In this document: piece after piece, positions 3,003-49,740 of the stretch
Layout of the letters: the number at the start of each line of letters is the position of its first letter
How positions within the stretch are numbered: the first letter of the stretch is position 1
NCBI GenBank assembly: GCA_951406725.2
Contig: OX597841.1
Coordinates: forward strand, 20,460,001-20,524,000
Length of the DNA stretch: 64,000 nucleotides
From: Octopus vulgaris
Lineage: Eukaryota
Reading direction: 5' to 3'
Position numbers and translations under genes: made by a program
The notes under the pieces: generated by a model
What the model saw: only the letters and a program-made list of their open reading frames with translations
Told to the model about the DNA's origin: nothing
Databases searched by the model: none

Positions 3003-4292
3003 CAAGGGACGTTCAATAAGTAATGCCTCTGACCCACTTGCAGTTGCTTGATCTAGCTGAAATTTTGCATGTGCAATCATTTATATCTCTATAGAGTAAG
3101 TGGCAAATTACAGCTCTGAATTAATTGTGGTTTCTGATTTACAGGTGTTTGAACCGAGTCAAGTGTGAAATGGAGCCTGTTGAGTGTCGAGCAGTGATCC
3201 GGGTTTTGTATTTGAAAGGACACACACCACGGGAGACTTTTCATGAAATGAAAGTAACTTATGTTGATGATGCCCCATCATATGACCTTGTAAAACGCTA
3301 GCATCGTGAATTCAAACATGGTCGAAACTCTGTGGAAACATTTCCCAGATCTGGTCGCCCCTTCTGCCATTGATGAGGCATCTGTCCGTCAAGTTGAGGC
3401 TGCCATTTTGGAAGATCGACGCATAATTATTCGCCAAATAGCCCATGAGGTCAAGATTAGTACCGGGTCTGTGGAAACTATCATTCATGACCATTTGCAT
3501 ATGCAAAAGGTGTCTGCCAGATGGATTCCCAGGTTGCTCACGCCTTTCCAGAAGCAAGAACGCGTCGAGTGCTCGAGGGTGAATTTGGAGATGTGCCAAG
3601 AAGATGAGTCAAAACTTTTCAAAAGACTGATTACACAGGATGAAACCTGGGTCCATCACGATGATCCAGAGACCAAAGCCCAGTCAATGCAGTGGAAGCA
3701 CTGTGACTCACCCCCTCCAAAGAAAGCAAGGGTGCAGCCCTCCGCTGGCAAGGTCATGCTCACAGTCTTCTGGGACCAGGACGGAGTAGTGATGACAGAT
3801 TTCCTGGCAAAGGGTACCACAATTGCAGGAGCTTATTATGCTTCACTTTTGAGGAAATTAAGAGAAGTTATCAAAATCAAGAGGCGGGGCAAGATCAGCA
3901 AAGGCATCCTCCTCCTGCAGGACAACGCTCCGGTCCACAACTCACTTGTCGCCAGATCAGAAGCACAGGCGTATGGCTATGAACTCCTCCCCCATCCCCC
4001 TACTTTCCTGACCTTGCACCCTCTGATTTTCACCTCTTCCCAGTCATGAAGTTGTTTTTGAAAGGAAAGTGTTTCCCAGATGATGCAGCCTTGATTTCTG
4101 AAGTCACGTTGAGGTTGGAGGACCAAGCTGGGGTCTTCTACAAAAACGGTCTCCAGAGCTGCATCAAACAATGGGAGAAATACGTAACTCTGGGTGGTTC
4201 CTATGTAGAAAAAGACTAATAACTGTGCCAAGTTTCGTTGCTCTACTGCTATGGGAAGTGGGTCAGGGGCATTACTTATTGAACGCCCCTCG
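3003..4292 (+). mobile_element. Full-length mariner (DD34D) transposon, frameshifted transposase
   Basis: ~37-bp TIRs flanked by TA (3001-3002, 4293-4294); ATG at 3170; motifs WIPRLLT, ITQDETW, LQDNAP and, out of frame, PDLAPSDF. Confidence 0.95.
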
Positions 4293-6400: not shown

Positions 6401-6578
6401 TTGACTTTGGAGCATCAATGAGAAGGAAGATGACAAGAAGGAAAGAGACAATCCATATGATGGAGAGGATGAAGATTATGACGACTGGCTTCATGGTAAA
6501 CTGCCATCCAAGACTGTTCATTATCTCAGCATCATTCACAATATTTTTCATAATGTTTGTGAATTCGTTGTGACTCAC
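6401..6578 (-). CDS. TIR / TMEM268-like gene, in-window exon 4 (first TM helix)
   Basis: Acceptor ttccttttttccag|GTG and donor TCAA|gtgagt; 178 nt, phase 0-1; encodes VSHNEFTNIMKNIVNDAEIMNSLGWQFTMKPVVIIFILSIIWIVSFLLVIFLLIDAPKS. Confidence 0.87.
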
Positions 6579-10535: not shown

Positions 10536-10657
10536 ATTAATTCCATGACAGCTGAGGGGTGTCGGAACAGTTCCATCATAGTCAAAGACTAGAGTTGCCT
10601 TCCACTGGCCATTGATTCGGCCAGTGATTGTAGCTATCAACTGACCATTTGACAAAT
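10536..10657 (-). CDS. TIR / TMEM268-like gene, in-window exon 3
   Basis: Acceptor tatttttacag|AT and donor AAT|gtaagt; 122 nt, phase 1-0; encodes (N)LSNGQLIATITGRINGQWKATLVFDYDGTVPTPLSCHGIN. Confidence 0.87.
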
Positions 10658-14201: not shown

Positions 14202-14267
14202 TTGCTCTTGTTGAAAGAACTGATGACAGGTCACTGCTTATCGACTCACTGCTTCTTGGAAGACAAT
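14202..14267 (-). CDS. TIR / TMEM268-like gene, in-window exon 2 (66-nt Ser-rich linker, absent from the ORF track)
   Basis: Acceptor atttttgatctatttag|AT and donor GCAA|gtaagt; phase 1-1, open frame: (N)CLPRSSESISSDLSSVLSTRA. Confidence 0.78.
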
Positions 14268-25392: not shown

Positions 25393-26317
25393 GTTTAAAG
25401 AAGACGTCAAAAGTAATTAAATGGACCCAATTTGGCATCATGGTGTTATCAAGTAGGTGCAGAAAAAGGGTTTAGCCTCCAATGGCATTCATACTGACAT
25501 GGTTGCTACATTAAGGGATGACACTTCAGATTTATAAGCAGTGCAAAGTGAACAGCTGAATTTAGAAGGGAAAGGGAGAGTCTTGAAGATAACCCAAGAT
25601 CCAGATCTTGGGTTATAATTCAAGACTCTCCCTTTCCCTAAATTCAGTTGCTCATCGACTGTATTTACCACATGGTGGTGGATGATAGGTGATTGACTAT
25701 AAATCAAACAGCATATCCCATGAGTTAAGAATACACTGTACAATGAACTTGGCATGATGTAGGTTTCTGCTCAATTGGTGTCACATCTTCTGACATCAAG
25801 TTGATCTTATCCTGGGAAAATCTGACATTGTTTGAAACAGATCCGGCTAGTTTCCTTGCTCATTTCCTAAACCAGGGCAAGTGTTGGCTTCATCACTTTG
25901 AGTCAGAAATGAAGCAATCTATGCAGTGGAATCATCCCTCCAGACCTGCTCCAAAGAAGGCCAAGGTCATTCCATCTGCAGGGAAGATGCTGGCCTCAAT
26001 ATTTTTGAGATGCAAAAAACATTGTGTTAATTGACTATCTTCAAAAGAGCCACACTATCAATGGAGAGACATAGGCCAACTTGCTGAGGCAGTTATGAAA
26101 GGCTATCAAGACCAAACACTTGAGAAAACTGACAAAAAGGGGTCATGTTTTATCAGAACAATGCCCCAGCACACAAGTCCTTGATTTCAATGGCTGCAAT
26201 ATGTGACTGACTTTGGACTGGTTGGTCACCCTTCTTTGATCCCATCTGACTATCATATGTTCCCCAACATGAAAAAACATTTGGTTGGGAACCAGTGATG
26301 ATGTCATATTTGCTGTT

Positions 26318-27702
26318 ATTGCCTCCAGGCAATAACGGAGGAATTCAAGACAGGATGCCCCTGGGAGCTCCTCTATGCTGATGACCTTGCTCTAATTGCT
26401 GAGTCACTATCAGAACTGGAGGAGAAGTTTCAGGTGTGGAAGCAAGGATTAGAATCGAAGGGCCTTAGAGTCAATCTAGCTAAAACCAAAGTCCTAATAA
26501 GTAGGAAGGTAGACAAATCTCAAACGCCTTCAGGTAGATGGCCCTGCTCGATCTGTAGAAAAGGCGTAGGTAGAAACTCTATAAGATGTACCAAGTGTAA
26601 GCTATGGACACATAAGAGGTGCAGCAATGTCAAAGGAAGGCTAACTAGGAATATAGTTTTTGTATGTGGCAGATGTTCTGGTGCAATAAACACTGAAAAT
26701 GCGCAGAGACTGTCTTCCGCCACATTCCAGGGAGAAAAATTAGAAATAGTTGATAGTTTCCGTTACCTAGGTGATCAAGTCAGTAGTGGGGGGGGGGGTG
26801 CCGAAAGTGTAACTGCTAGAATAAGAATAGCCTGGGCAAAGTTCAGAGAGCTCTTACCTCTGCTGGTGACAAAAGGCCTCTCGCTCAGAGTAAAAGGCAG
26901 ACTGTATGACGCATGCGTAAGCTCGCAAGAAATGAAGCCAGTATGCTCCGATGGAGGTGTAATATCAGTGTTCATACCCGACAGAGTGTAAGTACCTTGA
27001 GAGAAAAGTTGAACCTAAGAAGCATTAGATGTAGTGTGCAAGAGAGACGTTTGCGCTGGTATGGTCATGTGGCGAGAACGGATGAAGATAGTTGTGTGAA
27101 AAAGTGCCACACCCTAGCGTTTGAGGGAACCTGTGGAAGAGGTAGACTGAGGAAAACCTGGGATGAGGTGGTGAAACACGACCTTCGCTCTTTAGGTCTC
27201 ACCAAGGAAATGACTAGAGACCGAGACCTTTGGAAGTATGCTGTGCGTGAGAAGACCCGGCAGGACAAGTGAGGCCATAACCCATGGCCCCTACCTGGGA
27301 CGTAGTCAGTCCACCTGTGCATACCTTCCTTCTTGGGACTCATAACTCTACTTGTGAAGACCTGTTGAGGCAAGTGAGAATCAAAATCAAAGAATCAAGT
27401 CAAAATCGAAATCGATCCACATCAATGGAATTTGTAGTTTGTGGTACCAGTGCCGGTGGCACATAAGAGAACCTTCCAAACGTGGCCGTTCGCCAGCCTC
27501 GTCTGGCACCTGTGTCAGTGGCACATAAAAAGCACCCACTACACTCTCGGAGTGGTTGGCGTTAGGAAGGGCATCCAGCTGTAGAAACACCGCCAGATCT
27601 GATTGGCCTGGTGCAGCCTCCTGGCTTCCCAGACCCCAGTTGAACCGTCCAACCCATGCTAGCATGGAAAGCGTACGTTAAACGATGATGATGATGATGA
27701 TG
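26318..27702 (+). mobile_element. 5'-truncated RTE-clade LINE (RT C-half, PHD-like finger, 3' UTR, (GAT)n tail)
   Basis: LLYADDL, GLRVNLAKTK, FRYLG, RRLRWYGHV and GRGRLRKTW motifs; 3' UTR matches many dispersed fragments. Confidence 0.92.
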
Positions 27703-29492: not shown

Positions 29493-29843
29493 TGCTACGT
29501 AACAGTCGTGTCAATGTTGAGTAAAACTGCTTCTGACGCACGTCAAGATATCCAACGGTTTGAAGTGGTTCTGGCACCTCACAGTCCTCCAGCATTATTA
29601 CAATCAGACGCTGCTGGTAGAGGCTGGATTCTGTAAGGTTCTGTAGGATCTCCTGGAAGTCAAACCATGTTGACAGGACATAGCTTCGGCTGAGCGCAAT
29701 CACGACACGCTCACTGAGCATGGCAGCACACAGTGTCGACTGGATTGTGCCATTGCTGCTCCTTGTTTTGGAGGTGGAATTGCCCTTGTTCTTGCTGCCT
29801 GTATGGATGATGCGCTGCTTTATGTTGACACCATCTTCACTCT

Positions 29844-29874
<31 letters not shown>

Positions 29875-30668
29875 GTCATCACTACCACCACCAACACTGC
29901 AGTTGCTACTGTTGATGGTGTTGTTAGGATTGCTTTTGTTGTTGTTGTTATTGATGCTGTTGTTGATGATGATGCTTCTGGTGCTGCTGCTTCTGCTGCT
30001 GCAGTTGCTGTTGTTGTTACTCTTGTTCTTGATGACAGCACCGATGCTGTTGCCATGGCTAGGACTGCTCCGACTGATAAGAATGCTAGGAATGCTGGGA
30101 TTGCTGTAATTGTTATGGCTATGAATGCTGGGATTGCGGTGACCGCTTGGAATGCTGGGAATGCCATAATCGTTGTTGAGACTGCTACATTTGCCCTGGC
30201 TTCTAGGAATGATGGGACTACTCCCATCGCTGGGAATGCTGGGATTGCCAAGGCCACTAGGAATTCTGGGATTTCCTTGATTGCTTTGGCTGGTCTCAGA
30301 GGAGTTTGGTTTGGTGTAGAAACATTTATAGTTGTATGGACATTCCTCCAGCTTCTTCACGATGCTCTCAATCCATGCAATATCGTTGGGGCTGTGTGAA
30401 AAGAAAATATGGTAACGGTATAGGTCCTGCAGGGGAGGGGCCGGAAAGAAGGAGTCCATGTTGAAGCAGGCATCAGTAGATGTTGTTGCACCACTTTCCA
30501 TCTTGTTGCCATCACCATCACCATCATCATCATCATCATTATTATTGAGCGAGATGGAACAGTCAATGGGGCTGTATGTAGTTGTTGGTTCGATTGGAAT
30601 GTGAGGGGTGTCCTCCTCGTTGCTGGCTGTGTCACTCTGTCCATCTTCAGGGATCAAGTTCTGGTGAT
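29493..30668 (-). CDS. TIR / TMEM268-like gene, in-window exon 1: TIR domain with large low-complexity insertion
   Basis: 1176-nt open exon; acceptor ttctttcctccacag|AT and donor AGCA|gtaagt (phase 1-1); TIR motifs YHIFFSHS..DIAWIESIVKKLE..YKC and SERVVIALSRSYVLSTW..RLIVIMLEDCEVPEPL...YLD; in-frame Mets at 30501 and 30459. Confidence 0.9.
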
Positions 30669-30984
30669 CTGTGGAGGAAAGAAAGAAAATAATGAAGAGA
30701 AACAAGATGAAATGAAAAAGAAGAAGAGGAACAACAGCAACAAGATAACAATAATGATAAGTTAAGGCTATGCTGGAGCAGCGCTTTCTGTGACAATGAA
30801 GATGATAATGATTGTGGTTGTGTCATTAATGATTGATGATAGTGGCAGTGGTGATAGTCATTGGGGTTTGTGGAGGTGGGGGTAGTCATGGTGGTCATAA
30901 TGGTGCTGACAATGCTTAAGATGGTCACAATGGTTATTGTGATAGCAGTGGTGATACAGTATTAAGGATGATACATGGTGATGT

Positions 30985-43611: not shown

Positions 43612-46262
43612 TCCCTTAAATCCTTAAAAATGTTTTAGCCCAAAGGCTGCGGCCATGCTGGGGCATCACCGCTGAATGAGCTACACTAATATGTGAATCC
43701 ACCTCTGATACGTGGCACTTGGTCAACAAGGGAGTTCGATGCCGCAGCCTGCATCTGTGTCTCCTGTCGTGAGGTAGGTTCATCTGGGACCCCCAACAGG
43801 AAGAGATCCAGTTTAGTTTTAAAGAAACCCACATCCACACCATGTAAGTCTCTCACGCGTTTAGGGAGGATGTTAAAGAGCTGTGGTCCTCTGAAACCCA
43901 AGCTGTTGCAGTATCTGGACCTGTATTTTGATGGTGATGTTGGAATCTTTGGCACCATGCAGTGGCGCCCCGTTCTGCAGTTGGGGTAACTTTGAATGCC
44001 AAAGTTTGGGACAAGACCCTCCAGGATTTTCCAGATGTATATCACTGCATATCTCTCCCGCCTTCGCTCTAGGGAGAAGAGGTTTAATACTTTCAGTCTT
44101 TCCCAGTAGCTGATATTTTGCATTGAGACGATCTTCTTTGTGTAGCTTCTTTGAATTGCTTTGAGTTCTGCTGTTAGTTTTATATTGTGTGGTGACCATA
44201 GTTGGGAGCAGTAGTCCAAGCGGCTGAGGACAAATGTTTTCCATAGGACCATCAGTGTCTCCTTCTCTCTTGTTCTGAAAGTTCGGAAAATCCATCCAGC
44301 TAGCTGTCTGCATTTTATCACCAGATTAGTAATATGCACTTGGAAAGATGCATCATTGCTCATGTCAATGCCCAGGTCACGCACTGATTTTGACTCAGGG
44401 ATTGCAATTCTTCCTGGGCCAGTGTATCCAGTCTGCATGTCGTTTACCTTTGTGTGCCGGTAGCGCAGGGCCTGGAACTTACCTGCATTAAACTGCATAT
44501 TGTTGTCCTCAGCCAACTTGTATATTGTATCCAACTCCTGTTGCAGATGCGCAATATTTTCAGGGTTTTGTATTGTGTGGGAGACTTTTGTGTCATCTGC
44601 ATAGCTAGCAAGGGTGGCCATCGTAGCAACTGACAGTATGTCTGAGAGGGCCACTATGAACATCAGTGGCCCCAAGACAGTGCCCTGTTATTTGTGTTTC
44701 CTTGGAGGTGGCTCCATTGGTCACAACTGCCTGTCTTCTATCTTTTAGGAAATTGTGCAGCCACTCTTCAAGTTTTCCGCCTATGCCGAGACCACGCAGT
44801 TTGTGACAGATCATACCATGGTCGATTTTATCAAAGGCTTTTGCAAAGTTGAGATATATTACATCCACATTTGAGCCATTTAGTAGCTGTTTTAACACCC
44901 AGTCATAGTGTTGCAGGAGCTGTATTAGGCAGCTTCTACCTGGTCGAAATCCATGCTGGGTGTTAGACAGCAAGTCATTTTCTTCAAGGAACATGATTAG
45001 TTTCTTGCGGAATATTCGTTCCATGACTTTGCTGATATGTGAGGTCAGAGAGATAGGCCTATAATTTTTAGCATCTGCTCTGCTACCTCCCTTATGGATA
45101 GGGCATATTACCCCCTCTTTCAATTTGACTGGGAGCTTACCACTTGCAAGAAAGCTCTGAAAAAGAAGCTGTAGCGGTTTTGCAAGGGCTCGTTTGCACG
45201 ATTTGAGAAGGATCACTGGAAATCCATCAGATCCAGCAGCTGAGTTTGTGTCAATCTCATCAATGGCTAGTGTGATATCATCATCTTCAATGTTAATGTA
45301 CTCAATTTTTGCCTCTTTGGCAAAGAATTCTTCTGGGTTGTTTACTTGCCTATGTCCTAGAGGTCTAGTGAACACACTTTGGAATTGTTTGTTCAGTATT
45401 TCACTTATCCTCATGGGATTTCCTGTGAGAGAGCCATCTTTTCGGAAGAGAGGTCCTATTCTCTGGTGCACTGTGGCTGTCTCTTTGGCAACCTTAAAGA
45501 AAGCTTTAGGGTTTGACTTTATATTTTCTATTACCCAAGCTTCTTTATCTGCTCTCTCCTTTTCATGGGACTGATGCAGACTTTTCTCAGTTTCCATTAG
45601 CATTCTTTCGAGCCGAGACTTCTCACCACTTTTGGTGTGCTTGCTCAGGCGGTTTGCAATCCTTGTCCGTCGTCTCATAAGAATCCTCCTTTCTCGAGGG
45701 ATCCTGTTTTTGTTCTTGTGTGTGCTGGCCCTGCACATTGGGACATATTTGTCACATATGGCTTGTATTATGGACATGAAGTGTTTGTGTTTCATGTTAA
45801 TGTCCGGTGTGGAGAGACATTTAGGTCAATCCTGTTTGAGGATCTCTTTCTCAATCAACTTCCAGCTTGCTTTATGAAAGTTTAAGTTGGAGAGATGGTG
45901 GATGCTTCGTATAGGCTGTGTGTCTACGGGGGCTTTTGTTCCATACATAGACAGCTCTATTATGTTGTGTTCTGAGATCATTGTCGGCATCACTTTAACA
46001 TTATGGATAATATCCATATTGTTTGTGAAGCAGAGATCCAGTATATTATCTGCCCTTGTTGGTTGCAGAACTGTTTGCTCCATGAAAGAGGCATTTGTGA
46101 GATGGAGCAGGGACTCTGCCTGTGCCTGCTGATGGTGTGTCATCCCTGAGAGCATCTGCCCCAGGCCATTCCACATTGGGGAAGTTAAAGTCACCCATGA
46201 AGAATACACTGTTGTGTTGTTCAAGGTTGGTGAGAACTTCTATTTTTGTTAGGCAGTCTTCA
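43612..46262 (-). mobile_element. 5'-truncated CR1-group LINE (endonuclease C-part and RT), frameshifted
   Basis: GDFNFP, LDLCFTN, NYRPISLTS, QHGFRPGRSC, FAKAFD, YADD, LDYCSQLWSP, SLERRRERY; short-repeat tail. Confidence 0.93.
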
Positions 46263-47102: not shown

Positions 47103-49740
47103 TTGGAAGTCACAGAGAAATTATACCTCAAACAAATGATGACAGAAGCAACAAGAAATAATAATACGATCGACTTGGTTTTCACCAACAACGAGGACAC
47201 GCTATTTGACCTTCACTCAACCCCAACAATCCTTTCAGACCACAATATTATTGAAATGCATTTACACATTGGTAATGAGCCCAATGCCACAACTCTTAAA
47301 CAAAAGGACATGCCAAAGCTATGCAGGTATGATTATCACCAGGCAAATTGGGAAACTATTAACAACCAGTTACAAATCATTGACTGGGATCTCTACCTTA
47401 CTGGGCCAGATAAACACAAGAAATTCTTAAACAAGATCGAAGAAATATGTGAAAAAAATGTTCCTCTAAAGAAAACCAAGTCCACAAAAAACCTGTACCA
47501 CGGGAGCGAAAGATCCTGATGCGCAAAAGGTCAAGACTAAGAAACAAAACATCTAAGCTGACATCAAAACATGAATTACAGAAAGTCCTTGACCAAATAT
47601 ACAGATTAGAAGACAATCTAAAACAACACTATGATGAAGAACGTAACAATGCAGAAAAGAGAGCCATAGAAAACATCAAGAAAAATCCAAAATGTTTCTA
47701 CAGTTTTGCAAAGAAATACTCGAACACCAAGTCAACAATAGGACCTCTCCAGAGACAAAATGGGGATGTAGTGAATAACCCTATTGAAATGGCAGAAATG
47801 TTGGGTCAACAGTATGAAAGTGTCTTCAGTGAGCCATCTAAAACCATGAAGATCCATGACCCAGGAAAATTCTTCAAGGATATCGACCATACTAAACCTA
47901 CCCTATCCGACATTGATTTCAACCCAGAAGACATAGCAAGAGCCATAGACAAGCTCTCCATGCACTCGGCTGCGGGGCCTGACGGTTTCAATGCCATGAT
48001 ACTTAAAAACTGCAAGGTACAATTGTCGAAACCCCTTTACATGATATGGAGGGAATCTATGGAGAATGGCAAAATACCATCATCATCATCATCATCATTT
48101 AGCGTCCGTTTTCCATGCTAGCATGGGTTGGACGGTTCTGCTGGGGTCTGTGAAGCCAGAAGGCTTCATCAGGCCCAGTCAAATCTGGCAGTGTTTCTAC
48201 GGCTGGATAAATACATATAAAGAAGCACACATAACTCCAATACATAAAGGGGACAGCAAATCAAAACCAAAGAACTACCGACCAATCTCACTGACATCAC
48301 ACATTATCAAGGTCTTCGAAAGAATAGTTCGTGGAAAACTGGTTGAGTTCCTGGAATCCAACAATCTGATGAATTGCAACCAGCATGGATTCAGGTTAGG
48401 TAGATCATGTCTTTCCCAACTACTGGCACACCATGACCAAATCCTAGAAAATCTAGAGAATGGATACAACACAGATGTTATCTACCTCGACTTTGCCAAG
48501 GCATTTGACAAGGTAGATCATGGCATCCTGGGTCACAAACTTCGAAAGCTAGGAGTAGGAGGAAAAGTTGGTACATGGATACATGAGTTCCTTACAAATA
48601 GAACTCAAACAGTCACTGTGAATGGAACCCATTCAACACCATCACCTGTGACCAGCAGTGTTCCTCAGGGTACAGTACTCGGCCCAATCCTGTTTCTCAT
48701 CCTCATCTCTGACATAGATGAAGATACAACCAGCAACGTCTCATCCTTTGCTGATGACACCAGGGTCATGAGACAAATCAAAGACGAGGTGGATACAGAG
48801 GCCTTACAAAAGGACCTGACCACCATATATAAATGGCAGGAAACAAACAACATGTTGTTCAATGATAAGAAGTTTGAACTAATTCGCTACGGAACAGATC
48901 AAGATCTGAAAAATACAACAAACTACAGAAACCCATCAGGACAACAAATAATGGAAAAACAGTATGTGAAAGATTTAGGCATCCACATGGGAACCAACCT
49001 AAAATTCAGAGAACACCTTGACTCAGTCTGTCTTACTGCAAGAAAGTACAGCGGGTGGATCTTGCGCACCTTCAAATCAAGAGATACCTCAACAATGAAA
49101 ACCCTCTGGAACAGTATGATACTTCCGAGGATTGACTACTGTTCTCAGTTATGGTCACCAACAACAAAGGGACAACTATCTAAGATAGAATCGCTCCAAA
49201 GAAATTTTACCTCATACTTCTCAGAAACGAGGGACCTGGACTATTGGCAAAGACTCAAAACCTTGAGGATGTACTCAATAGAAAGAAGATTTGAGCGATA
49301 CCGAATTATATACATTTGGAAAATGATAGAGCAGAAGGTGCCAAACTTTGGTATCAAAACCTACCACTCACTGCGCCACGGAAGACGCTGCCAGCTGCCA
49401 CCAATCAACAAAAAGGCTGGCCTGGCAGCAAAAACCCTGCGAGAATCAAGTCTGTTGGTTCGAGGAGCACAACTGTTCAACTCCATTCCGGTACATGTCA
49501 GAAATCTATCAGGATGCAGTGTGGAATCATTCAAATTGCAACTGGATAGATACCTAAGCACCATTAGAGATGAACCCCATCTCCCAGAATATACACAACG
49601 AGCACAAACTGACTCAAACTCGCTCCTACACATGTCAAAATTAAGCAGAGAATACAACCTGGCAACCACACCAGACTCTGAGGGTGGAGTCTTCGACTTG
49701 GCCTGAGCATGGACTCAAACCCAAATGAAATGAAATGAAA
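47103..49740 (+). mobile_element. 5'-truncated CR1-group LINE, nearly intact ORF2 portion
   Basis: IDLVFTN, SDH, NYRPISLTS, QHGFRLGRSC, DFAKAFD, VPQGTVLGP, FADD; (AAATG)n tail; one frameshift near 47490 and a 130-bp insertion. Confidence 0.95.
48079..48208 (-). mobile_element. RTE 3'-tail fragment inserted into the CR1-group LINE
   Basis: (ATC)n followed by the reverse complement of the RTE 3' UTR; removal restores ...GKIP-NTYKEAH... Confidence 0.9.

What the first reader, a model, noticed from the sequence alone, without database searches (positions are those of the whole stretch)
29752..30312. TIR domain split at the BB-loop position by a ~187-aa low-complexity insertion
Seen: the N-half of the TIR (YHIFFSHS...KKLEECPYNYKCFY) is separated from the C-half (TIQSTLCAAMLSERVVIALS...) by Ser/Asn/Pro-rich, poly-Asn, poly-Asp and poly-Gly sequence, with the frame open throughout. 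Established: this is where the BB loop (RDxxPG) lies, the key TIR-TIR assembly surface, and that motif is absent here. Inference: a long disordered loop replaces the BB loop, which could block canonical TIR polymerisation (decoy) or add a regulatory or condensate-forming segment.
Basis: partly seen in the sequence, partly recalled or inferred. Interest (0 to 1): 0.72.

Follow-up and report, generated by a model that had tools for sequence, protein, structure and literature searches.

The report
Octopus TIR with giant floppy loop
An octopus membrane protein carries a real, transcribed 189-residue low-complexity loop in the middle of its immune-type TIR domain, where snails and clams have about 10 residues, but those relatives already lack the loop's usual binding motif, so the insert is likely a tolerated expansion of a disused surface and not the event that switched the domain off.

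Summary
One 1,176-nt exon (30668-29493, minus strand) encodes a TIR domain whose BB loop is 189 residues long. Spliced transcripts keep the insert, and no joint skipped it in 8 of 8 runs. In the AlphaFold model the halves close into one TIR fold (Z 15, rmsd 2.4 A) around a disordered loop. The protein is an unstudied TIR plus two-transmembrane, TMEM268-like protein.

All 24 insert-free rows of the mollusc clade have 10-13-residue loops and already lack RDxxPG, and the loop is their least conserved part. Distant family members keep RDFxxG. Octopus also has Gln at the catalytic Glu position. The insert arose after the split from cuttlefish-type relatives (13 residues, poly-Asn seed), likely by repeat slippage, and is 87% identical between two Octopus species, so some constraint exists.

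Best reading: a tolerated expansion on a non-enzymatic membrane scaffold (0.6). A regulatory or condensing loop remains open (0.25). In passing, one contig suggests that this exon is back-spliced into a circle. The scan noted a similar loop expansion in an octopus glycosidase.

The parts
29493..30668 (-). TIR exon, 1,176 nt, phase 1-1; holds an acidic linker, both TIR halves and the insert
   Evidence: splice signals; contigs begin or end at 29493 and 30668-30671, with the upstream exon as loose end
30421..30668 (-). acidic, predicted disordered linker with a short poly-Asn/Asp run, ending in the conserved APPL-x-DL extension before the TIR
30313..30420 (-). TIR N-half: strand A, helix A, strand B
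29746..30312 (-). 189-aa low-complexity BB-loop expansion, predicted disordered
30085..30275 (-). six degenerate NPSIPS-type hexapeptide copies within the insert, from a repeated DNA unit (limits approximate)
   Evidence: 9-nt period arrays
29909..30018 (-). Ser- and Asn-rich trinucleotide-repeat part of the insert
29844..29897 (-). Gly-Asp(8)-Gly acidic patch of the insert
29493..29745 (-). TIR C-half: helix B to helix E; Gln at the position of the catalytic Glu (W+4 in helix C)
14202..14267 (-). next exon (66 nt), linker after the TIR; begins AT
10536..10657 (-). exon starting the DUF4481/TMEM268-like part
6401..6578 (-). exon with the first predicted transmembrane helix
647..744 (-). exon with the second predicted transmembrane helix; the gene goes on beyond the window

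Best explanation
This is a transcribed, octopus-lineage expansion of the BB loop in a TIR plus TMEM268-like membrane protein, and it likely grew by repeat slippage in a loop that molluscan ancestors had already stopped using, so it is likely a tolerated flexible appendage on a non-enzymatic membrane scaffold. Shown: exon, insert, retention in spliced RNA, short motif-less loops in relatives, Gln at the catalytic position. Predicted: one intact TIR fold, a disordered loop, two membrane helices. Inferred: TIR and C-terminal domain both face the cytosol; the TIR cannot hand a BB loop to the next subunit of a MyD88-type filament and cleaves no NAD; it binds partners through the parts that molluscs conserve (the N-terminal extension, helix B-strand C, the CD loop, strand E). 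The insert would act mainly as a spacer or brush over an unused face, held under moderate purifying selection once fixed.
For: Loop length 10-11 aa in gastropod, bivalve and chiton proteins, 13 aa with poly-Asn in cuttlefish-type proteins, 180 in O. bimaculoides, 189 in O. vulgaris and O. sinensis. Tree of TIR cores with the loop left out, 69 rows: a clade of 26 rows with support 1.0 holds all named mollusc orthologues and both octopus rows; 0 of its 24 insert-free rows keep RD or RDxxxG; 10 of the 11 rows in the neighbouring branches (one is Lineus) keep RD without the Gly; 30 rows, 29 of them more distant, keep RDxxxG. Column conservation of the loop is 0.29 in 21 mollusc rows against 0.56-0.90 for their other TIR elements, but 0.63 in 28 canonical rows. 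W+4 is Glu in 40 of 40 rows with RD, but Gln, Arg or Leu in 21 of 26 mollusc-clade rows. The insert is built of trinucleotide and 9-nt repeats, changes faster than the TIR halves (23 of 181 against 4 of 119 residues, p = 0.006, plus 9 gap positions) and has only 2 aromatic residues. Model: VIA-align places residues 112-421 on the Hydra TRR-2 TIR, 118 of 127 residues, Z 15.0, rmsd 2.4 A.
Against: The insert is not drifting freely: 87% identity between O. sinensis and O. bimaculoides, nearly the same length in a further, unnamed species (256 against 262 nt across the repeat core), and all 3 listed differences inside it are synonymous. It has ordered blocks (six NPSIPS copies, a basic Asn/Ser part, an acidic patch). 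It is not significantly faster than the disordered linker before the TIR (p = 0.08). A disordered BB loop drives condensation of plant TIRs (PMC10972746, abstract and passages), so this position can carry such a role. No function was tested. Only three named Octopus species were seen with the insert. The tree rests on 127 columns with FastTree support.
Confidence: 0.6

Rival explanations
1. The insert has been recruited as a functional disordered region: a Ser-rich phosphorylation or docking segment, or a charge-blocked Asn-rich segment that clusters the protein at the membrane in place of TIR filament formation.
For: 87% identity and near-constant length across octopods; repeated NPSIPS units and separated basic and acidic blocks; precedent for BB-loop-driven TIR condensation in plants (PMC10972746).
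Against: Only 2 aromatic residues, 2 S/T-P sites and no TRAF6-type motif (motif patterns recalled); 9 gap positions between two species; cuttlefish-type orthologues do without it while the rest of the protein is 68% identical; the plant mechanism needs NAD or ATP binding by an active TIR.
Confidence: 0.25
2. The insert itself turned a polymerising TIR into a decoy.
For: The position is the BB loop, whose Arg and Pro are needed for MyD88 filaments (PMC12297185, passages); a 189-aa loop could add steric blocking.
Against: The motif is already gone in 24 of 24 insert-free mollusc-clade rows and the loop is unconserved there. Any decoy or capping role would belong to the whole clade.
Confidence: 0.06
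3. The insert is an exitron, removed in a regulated minority of transcripts to restore a compact TIR.
For: 187 or 189 codons could be removed in frame; contigs drop rare variants, and the tool masked 29832-30033.
Against: No joint within the exon in 8 of 8 runs; contigs cross from the TIR halves into the insert on both sides in 6 of 7 spliced runs and on one side in the seventh; no consensus donor near the 5' end of the insert and no pyrimidine-rich acceptor near its 3' end; 8 of 8 database isoforms that contain this exon keep it.
Confidence: 0.05
4. Assembly artefact or a decaying gene.
For: Simple repeats can be misassembled.
Against: Same insert in independent records of three species and in RNA contigs of several studies; 15 of 17 listed codon differences in the C-half are synonymous.
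Confidence: 0.01

Closest known systems
TIR plus DUF4481/TMEM268-like proteins of invertebrates, amphioxus and amphibians (database records such as Asterias 'transmembrane protein 268-like' XP_033642929.1, Branchiostoma XP_035689347.1, Ascaphus XP_075422882.1)
   Same: N-terminal TIR followed by a two-helix membrane domain; 72 of 76 aligned relatives match TIR_2 and 24 of 76 match DUF4481.
   Different: Most distant members keep a 10-aa RDFxxG loop and the helix-C Glu; the octopus protein has neither, and has a 189-aa loop. No paper on this architecture was found.
Human TMEM268
   Same: DUF4481-like membrane part (Pfam weak in octopus, E 0.012; Atlas lead 0.89 for the mussel orthologue).
   Different: Reported to bind and stabilise integrin beta-4 (PMC6748091, abstract only); it has no TIR as I recall, not checked here.
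TLR, MyD88 and MAL TIR domains
   Same: Same fold; closest solved sequences by profile are TLR2-type TIRs.
   Different: They use the RDxxPG BB loop for filament assembly; 16 of 16 uninterrupted TIR matches elsewhere in this genome keep RD in a short loop. This TIR lies before the membrane helices and no LRR or Ig family was found.
Plant TIR-only proteins that condense through a disordered BB loop (RBA1, TX14, RPP1-TIR)
   Same: Disordered BB loop (PMC10972746, abstract and passages).
   Different: Their loops are short (17-19 residues in cell-death-active Arabidopsis TIRs; PMC12452931, passage) and they are NAD-binding enzymes.
Oyster TIR-STING
   Same: Molluscan protein with an N-terminal TIR; top structural hit, Z 15.3, tied with the next.
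   Different: Only its TIR (chain residues 21-162) aligns; no STING family in the Pfam scans.

Membership tests
TIR domain | five-stranded parallel sheet with surrounding helices | tested here: met
   predicted: model residues 112-421 align to 118 of 127 residues of 4w8h, Z 15.0, rmsd 2.4 A
TIR domain | Pfam TIR_2 above the curated cut-off | tested here: met
   36.4 bits against 28, two stretches
TLR/MyD88/MAL-type polymerising TIR | Box 2 motif RDxxPG in a short BB loop | tested here: not met
   absent in octopus and in 24 of 24 insert-free mollusc-clade rows; motif as given in PMC7075850 (passages)
TLR/MyD88/MAL-type polymerising TIR | filament formation | not testable with these tools
   needs purified protein
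TIR NADase | catalytic Glu in helix C (W+4; position recalled, placed here by alignment) | tested here: not met
   WFDFQE: Gln where TLR10 and 40 of 40 RD-bearing rows have Glu; 5 gastropod rows keep Glu
Toll-like or IL-1 receptor | LRR or Ig ectodomain, one membrane helix, C-terminal TIR | tested here: not met
   TIR precedes two predicted membrane helices; no LRR or Ig family in Pfam
TMEM268 / DUF4481 | Pfam PF14800 over cut-off | tested here: inconclusive
   octopus 15.5 bits against 25; Saccostrea orthologue 26.5 bits, over cut-off; Atlas lead 0.89
TMEM268 / DUF4481 | two membrane helices within the domain | tested here: met
   predicted helices 514-536 and from 546, both hydrophobic
Exitron | splice sites within the exon and junction reads that skip the segment | tested here: not met
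   rare use is not excluded by contigs
ecTIR-DC families of invertebrates | assignment to one of the numbered families | not tested
   the defining paper was not read; three papers that cite the families were seen as passages only

The most novel reading that the evidence does not exclude
Molluscs have a membrane-anchored, non-catalytic TIR that lost its BB loop and could cap or dampen TLR/MyD88 filaments, and octopuses rebuilt the vacant loop into a 180-190-residue, selected, condensate-forming or phospho-regulated module, the first animal case of a TIR whose assembly loop was exchanged for a long disordered region; the same lengthened exon may also be back-spliced into a stop-free circle.
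Probability: 0.15. Interest if true: 0.75.

Novelty: new variant of a known kind. Interest (0 to 1): 0.42.

Why it matters
It shows that a TIR can carry a loop longer than the domain itself at its best-known assembly surface and still be predicted to fold. It supplies a natural series for one loop (RDFxxG, RD only, no motif, poly-Asn seed, 189 aa) in which the order of decay and expansion can be read and tested by loop swaps. It points to an unstudied TIR plus TMEM268-like family. Such inserts also hide domains: the genome-wide TIR_2 search missed this gene, and databases name the protein after unrelated low-complexity proteins.

Tried and rejected
No run was on record as RNA (no RNA holder listed); RNA status rests on spliced contig ends. 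Foldseek on the octopus model gave no match at E 0.001 or below and aligned about 80-100 columns, as expected when a long loop breaks the alignment; the short-loop model gave 11. Two long 'loops' (P0075, 429 aa; P0086, 327 aa) come from pairing halves of different TIRs in multi-TIR proteins, and one of -5 (P0027) from a fragment; all were set aside. An IQ-TREE run timed out, so the tree is FastTree; 9 of 78 rows were dropped as fragments or misaligned. The Argonauta model starts at the C-half, and a search for short proteins with the N-half found no octopod fragment, so its loop is unknown. Searches of the own genome found one match to the C-half and, with an RDxxxG-type abalone paralogue, only TIR loci already listed; the DUF4481 family search rang nowhere and is uninformative. 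The C-terminal domain was not folded alone, so its fold was not searched. No complex was predicted. Paper searches for the locus, the architecture or a BB-loop insertion in cephalopods found nothing on it; the search on octopus homorepeats listed no octopus paper. Three supplementary files of PMC9699675 held neither the gene id nor a circRNA list; its file 2 was not searched and may bear on the circle.

Full report
Observation. The minus-strand frame 30822-29389 encodes a TIR N-half, a low-complexity stretch and a TIR C-half without a stop, and Pfam TIR_2 matches it in two stretches above cut-off. The coding exon is 30668-29493, 1,176 nt, phase 1-1. Its translation is contained in O. vulgaris CAI9743053.1. 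Further exons lie at 14267-14202, 10657-10536, 6578-6401 and 744-647, and the first coding exon lies about 64 kb upstream, outside the window. The full protein (770 aa in O. sinensis) is an acidic linker, the TIR, and a DUF4481/TMEM268-like part with two predicted membrane helices.

Is the insert in the mRNA? Eight runs were laid. None is on record as RNA, but seven stop at the exon borders and go on with other sequence; in X11 the loose end is the upstream exon letter for letter and in X22 nearly so. X15 runs into the introns and looks like DNA. In 6 of the 7 spliced runs contigs pass from both TIR halves into the insert; in the seventh (X22, a more distant organism) one contig passes from the C-half across the repeat core, with 256 letters where the window has 262. 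No joint inside the exon was listed in any run. The tool masks 29832-30033 and contigs drop rare forms, so a rare exitron is not excluded. The sequence offers no consensus donor at the insert's 5' end and no good acceptor at its 3' end. All 8 database isoforms that contain the exon keep the insert; the other 2 of 10 are C-terminal fragments.

Does it fold? In the AlphaFold2 model of the O. sinensis protein both halves are confident (mostly pLDDT 88-97, with a dip to 65 in helix C) and residues 156-329 are almost all below 50. VIA-align places residues 112-421 on the Hydra TRR-2 TIR (118 of 127 residues, Z 15.0, rmsd 2.4 A) and 113-422 on MyD88 (Z 14.3, rmsd 3.0 A, 127 aligned). The short-loop cuttlefish-type protein gives the same elements and matches the same TIRs. 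These are predictions led by an alignment of short-loop relatives, so they show compatibility and not folding in a cell.

History of the loop. Relatives were collected by three protein searches and one search of representatives. The loop is 10-11 aa in abalone, whelk, mussel, scallop, pearl oyster, oyster and chiton proteins, 13 aa and starting with an Asn run in unnamed proteins that cluster with an Acanthosepion pharaonis record, 180 aa in O. bimaculoides and 189 aa in O. vulgaris and O. sinensis. The cuttlefish-type loop ends much like the octopus insert (TSKNKSSN against TSKTRSSN). On a tree of 69 TIR cores with the loop left out (9 of 78 rows dropped), 26 rows form a clade with support 1.0 that holds the named mollusc orthologues and the octopus rows. 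None of its 24 insert-free rows has RD or RDxxxG. Ten of the 11 rows in the neighbouring branches, among them Lineus, keep RD without the Gly. Thirty rows, 29 of them more distant and including amphioxus, a frog and an abalone paralogue, keep RDxxxG; two starfish rows and Capitella also lack the motif (midpoint root). Loop conservation is 0.29 in 21 mollusc rows against 0.56-0.90 for their other TIR elements, and 0.63 in 28 canonical rows. The helix-C Glu is kept in 40 of 40 RD-bearing rows but in only 5 of 26 mollusc-clade rows; octopus has Gln. The simplest order is: loss of the Gly, loss of RD, an Asn run in coleoids, then expansion in octopods.

The insert itself. It consists of six degenerate NPSIPS units, Ser/Asn trinucleotide runs and a Gly-Asp-Gly patch, which fits growth by slippage and local duplication. 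Between O. sinensis and O. bimaculoides it differs at 23 of 181 residues with 9 gap positions, against 4 of 119 in the TIR halves (p = 0.006) and 4 of 81 in the linker (p = 0.08). That is faster than the domain but well kept, and the 3 listed nucleotide differences inside it are synonymous. I had no O. bimaculoides DNA, so no dN/dS was computed. This is the main evidence against pure neutrality.

How it likely works. Inferred: a membrane hairpin holds a cytosolic, non-catalytic TIR that cannot donate a BB loop, which MyD88 needs for filaments (PMC12297185, passages), and that binds partners through the elements molluscs conserve. The insert hangs from the unused face. A condensing role has a precedent in plant TIRs (PMC10972746, abstract and passages), but those are active enzymes with short loops. 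Elsewhere in this genome 16 of 23 TIR_2 matches are uninterrupted and all 16 keep RD in a short loop; 7 are partial matches, apparently exon pieces, 2 of which my profile did not hit. That search missed this gene, so it is blind to other split TIRs.

What is known. No paper on this locus, on TIR plus TMEM268-like proteins or on such a BB-loop insert was found; subscription journals are mostly not covered, and the paper that defined ecTIR-DC families was not read. A TIR survey (PMC7075850, passages) describes the BB loop as flexible and variable and has no occurrence of 'insertion'. Human TMEM268 is reported to stabilise integrin beta-4 (PMC6748091, abstract). An unchecked note of this scan describes a 291-codon loop expansion in an octopus glycosidase, which suggests that such growth recurs in this genome.

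In passing. In run X4 one contig reads the last 28 letters of the exon and then its first 632 mapped letters, donor to acceptor, as a back-splice would. The neighbouring contig ends 2 letters past the donor, and both the next exon and this exon begin with AT, which fits a branch between linear and circular splicing. It is one contig in 1 of 8 runs, with fewer than the 31 letters the tool asks for on the short side, so it is a lead. The circle would have no stop in the coding frame, as for any frame-preserving exon. Octopus circRNAs are reported at low levels overall (PMC9699675, passages).

Verdict. Real and expressed; a new variant of a known domain; most likely a tolerated expansion of an already disused loop, with a smaller chance of acquired function. 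Interest 0.42.

Noticed in passing
window 29493-30668: One contig of run X4 joins the exon's donor to its own acceptor, as a single-exon circular RNA would; 28 letters on the short side, 1 of 8 runs. The exon is flanked by introns of about 64 kb and 15 kb that share several inverted repeat pairs, and the circle would be stop-free in frame.
   Followed up: partly
whole gene and relatives P0014-P0149: TIR plus DUF4481/TMEM268-like proteins occur in molluscs, a nemertean, an annelid, starfish, amphioxus and a frog, with no paper found; Babylonia has two mollusc-clade copies and Haliotis also has an RDxxxG paralogue.
   Followed up: partly
L023 and L024 (G000:C1:102135486-102135680 and 102018821-102019012): Two long frames of 762-763 codons end in a TIR cut by the same TAA just after strand C; truncated receptors or an intron at that place.
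   Followed up: no
L019 and L022 (G000:C5, near 105.40 and 105.42 Mb): Two near-identical TIRs carry a short Asn/Gly/Glu-rich extension of the loop between helix A and strand B.
   Followed up: no
L003-L007, L009, L010 (G000:C3, 22.89-23.16 Mb): A cluster of seven TIR-bearing single frames of about 690-710 codons, likely Toll-like receptors.
   Followed up: no
P0013 (Argonauta hians): The gene model starts at the TIR C-half and has its own Asn/Ser/Gly-rich insert of about 40 aa near the C-terminus, absent in Octopus.
   Followed up: no
database names of P0002-P0010: The protein is named 'histone-lysine N-methyltransferase' or 'kinase pats1' in databases although Pfam finds no such domain; likely a low-complexity match.
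   Followed up: yes
window 3294-4049, 26302-26991, 43686-45825, 47453-49706: Intronic transposon remains: a mariner-type transposase piece and several reverse-transcriptase frames, one with a weak PHD-like match.
   Followed up: no
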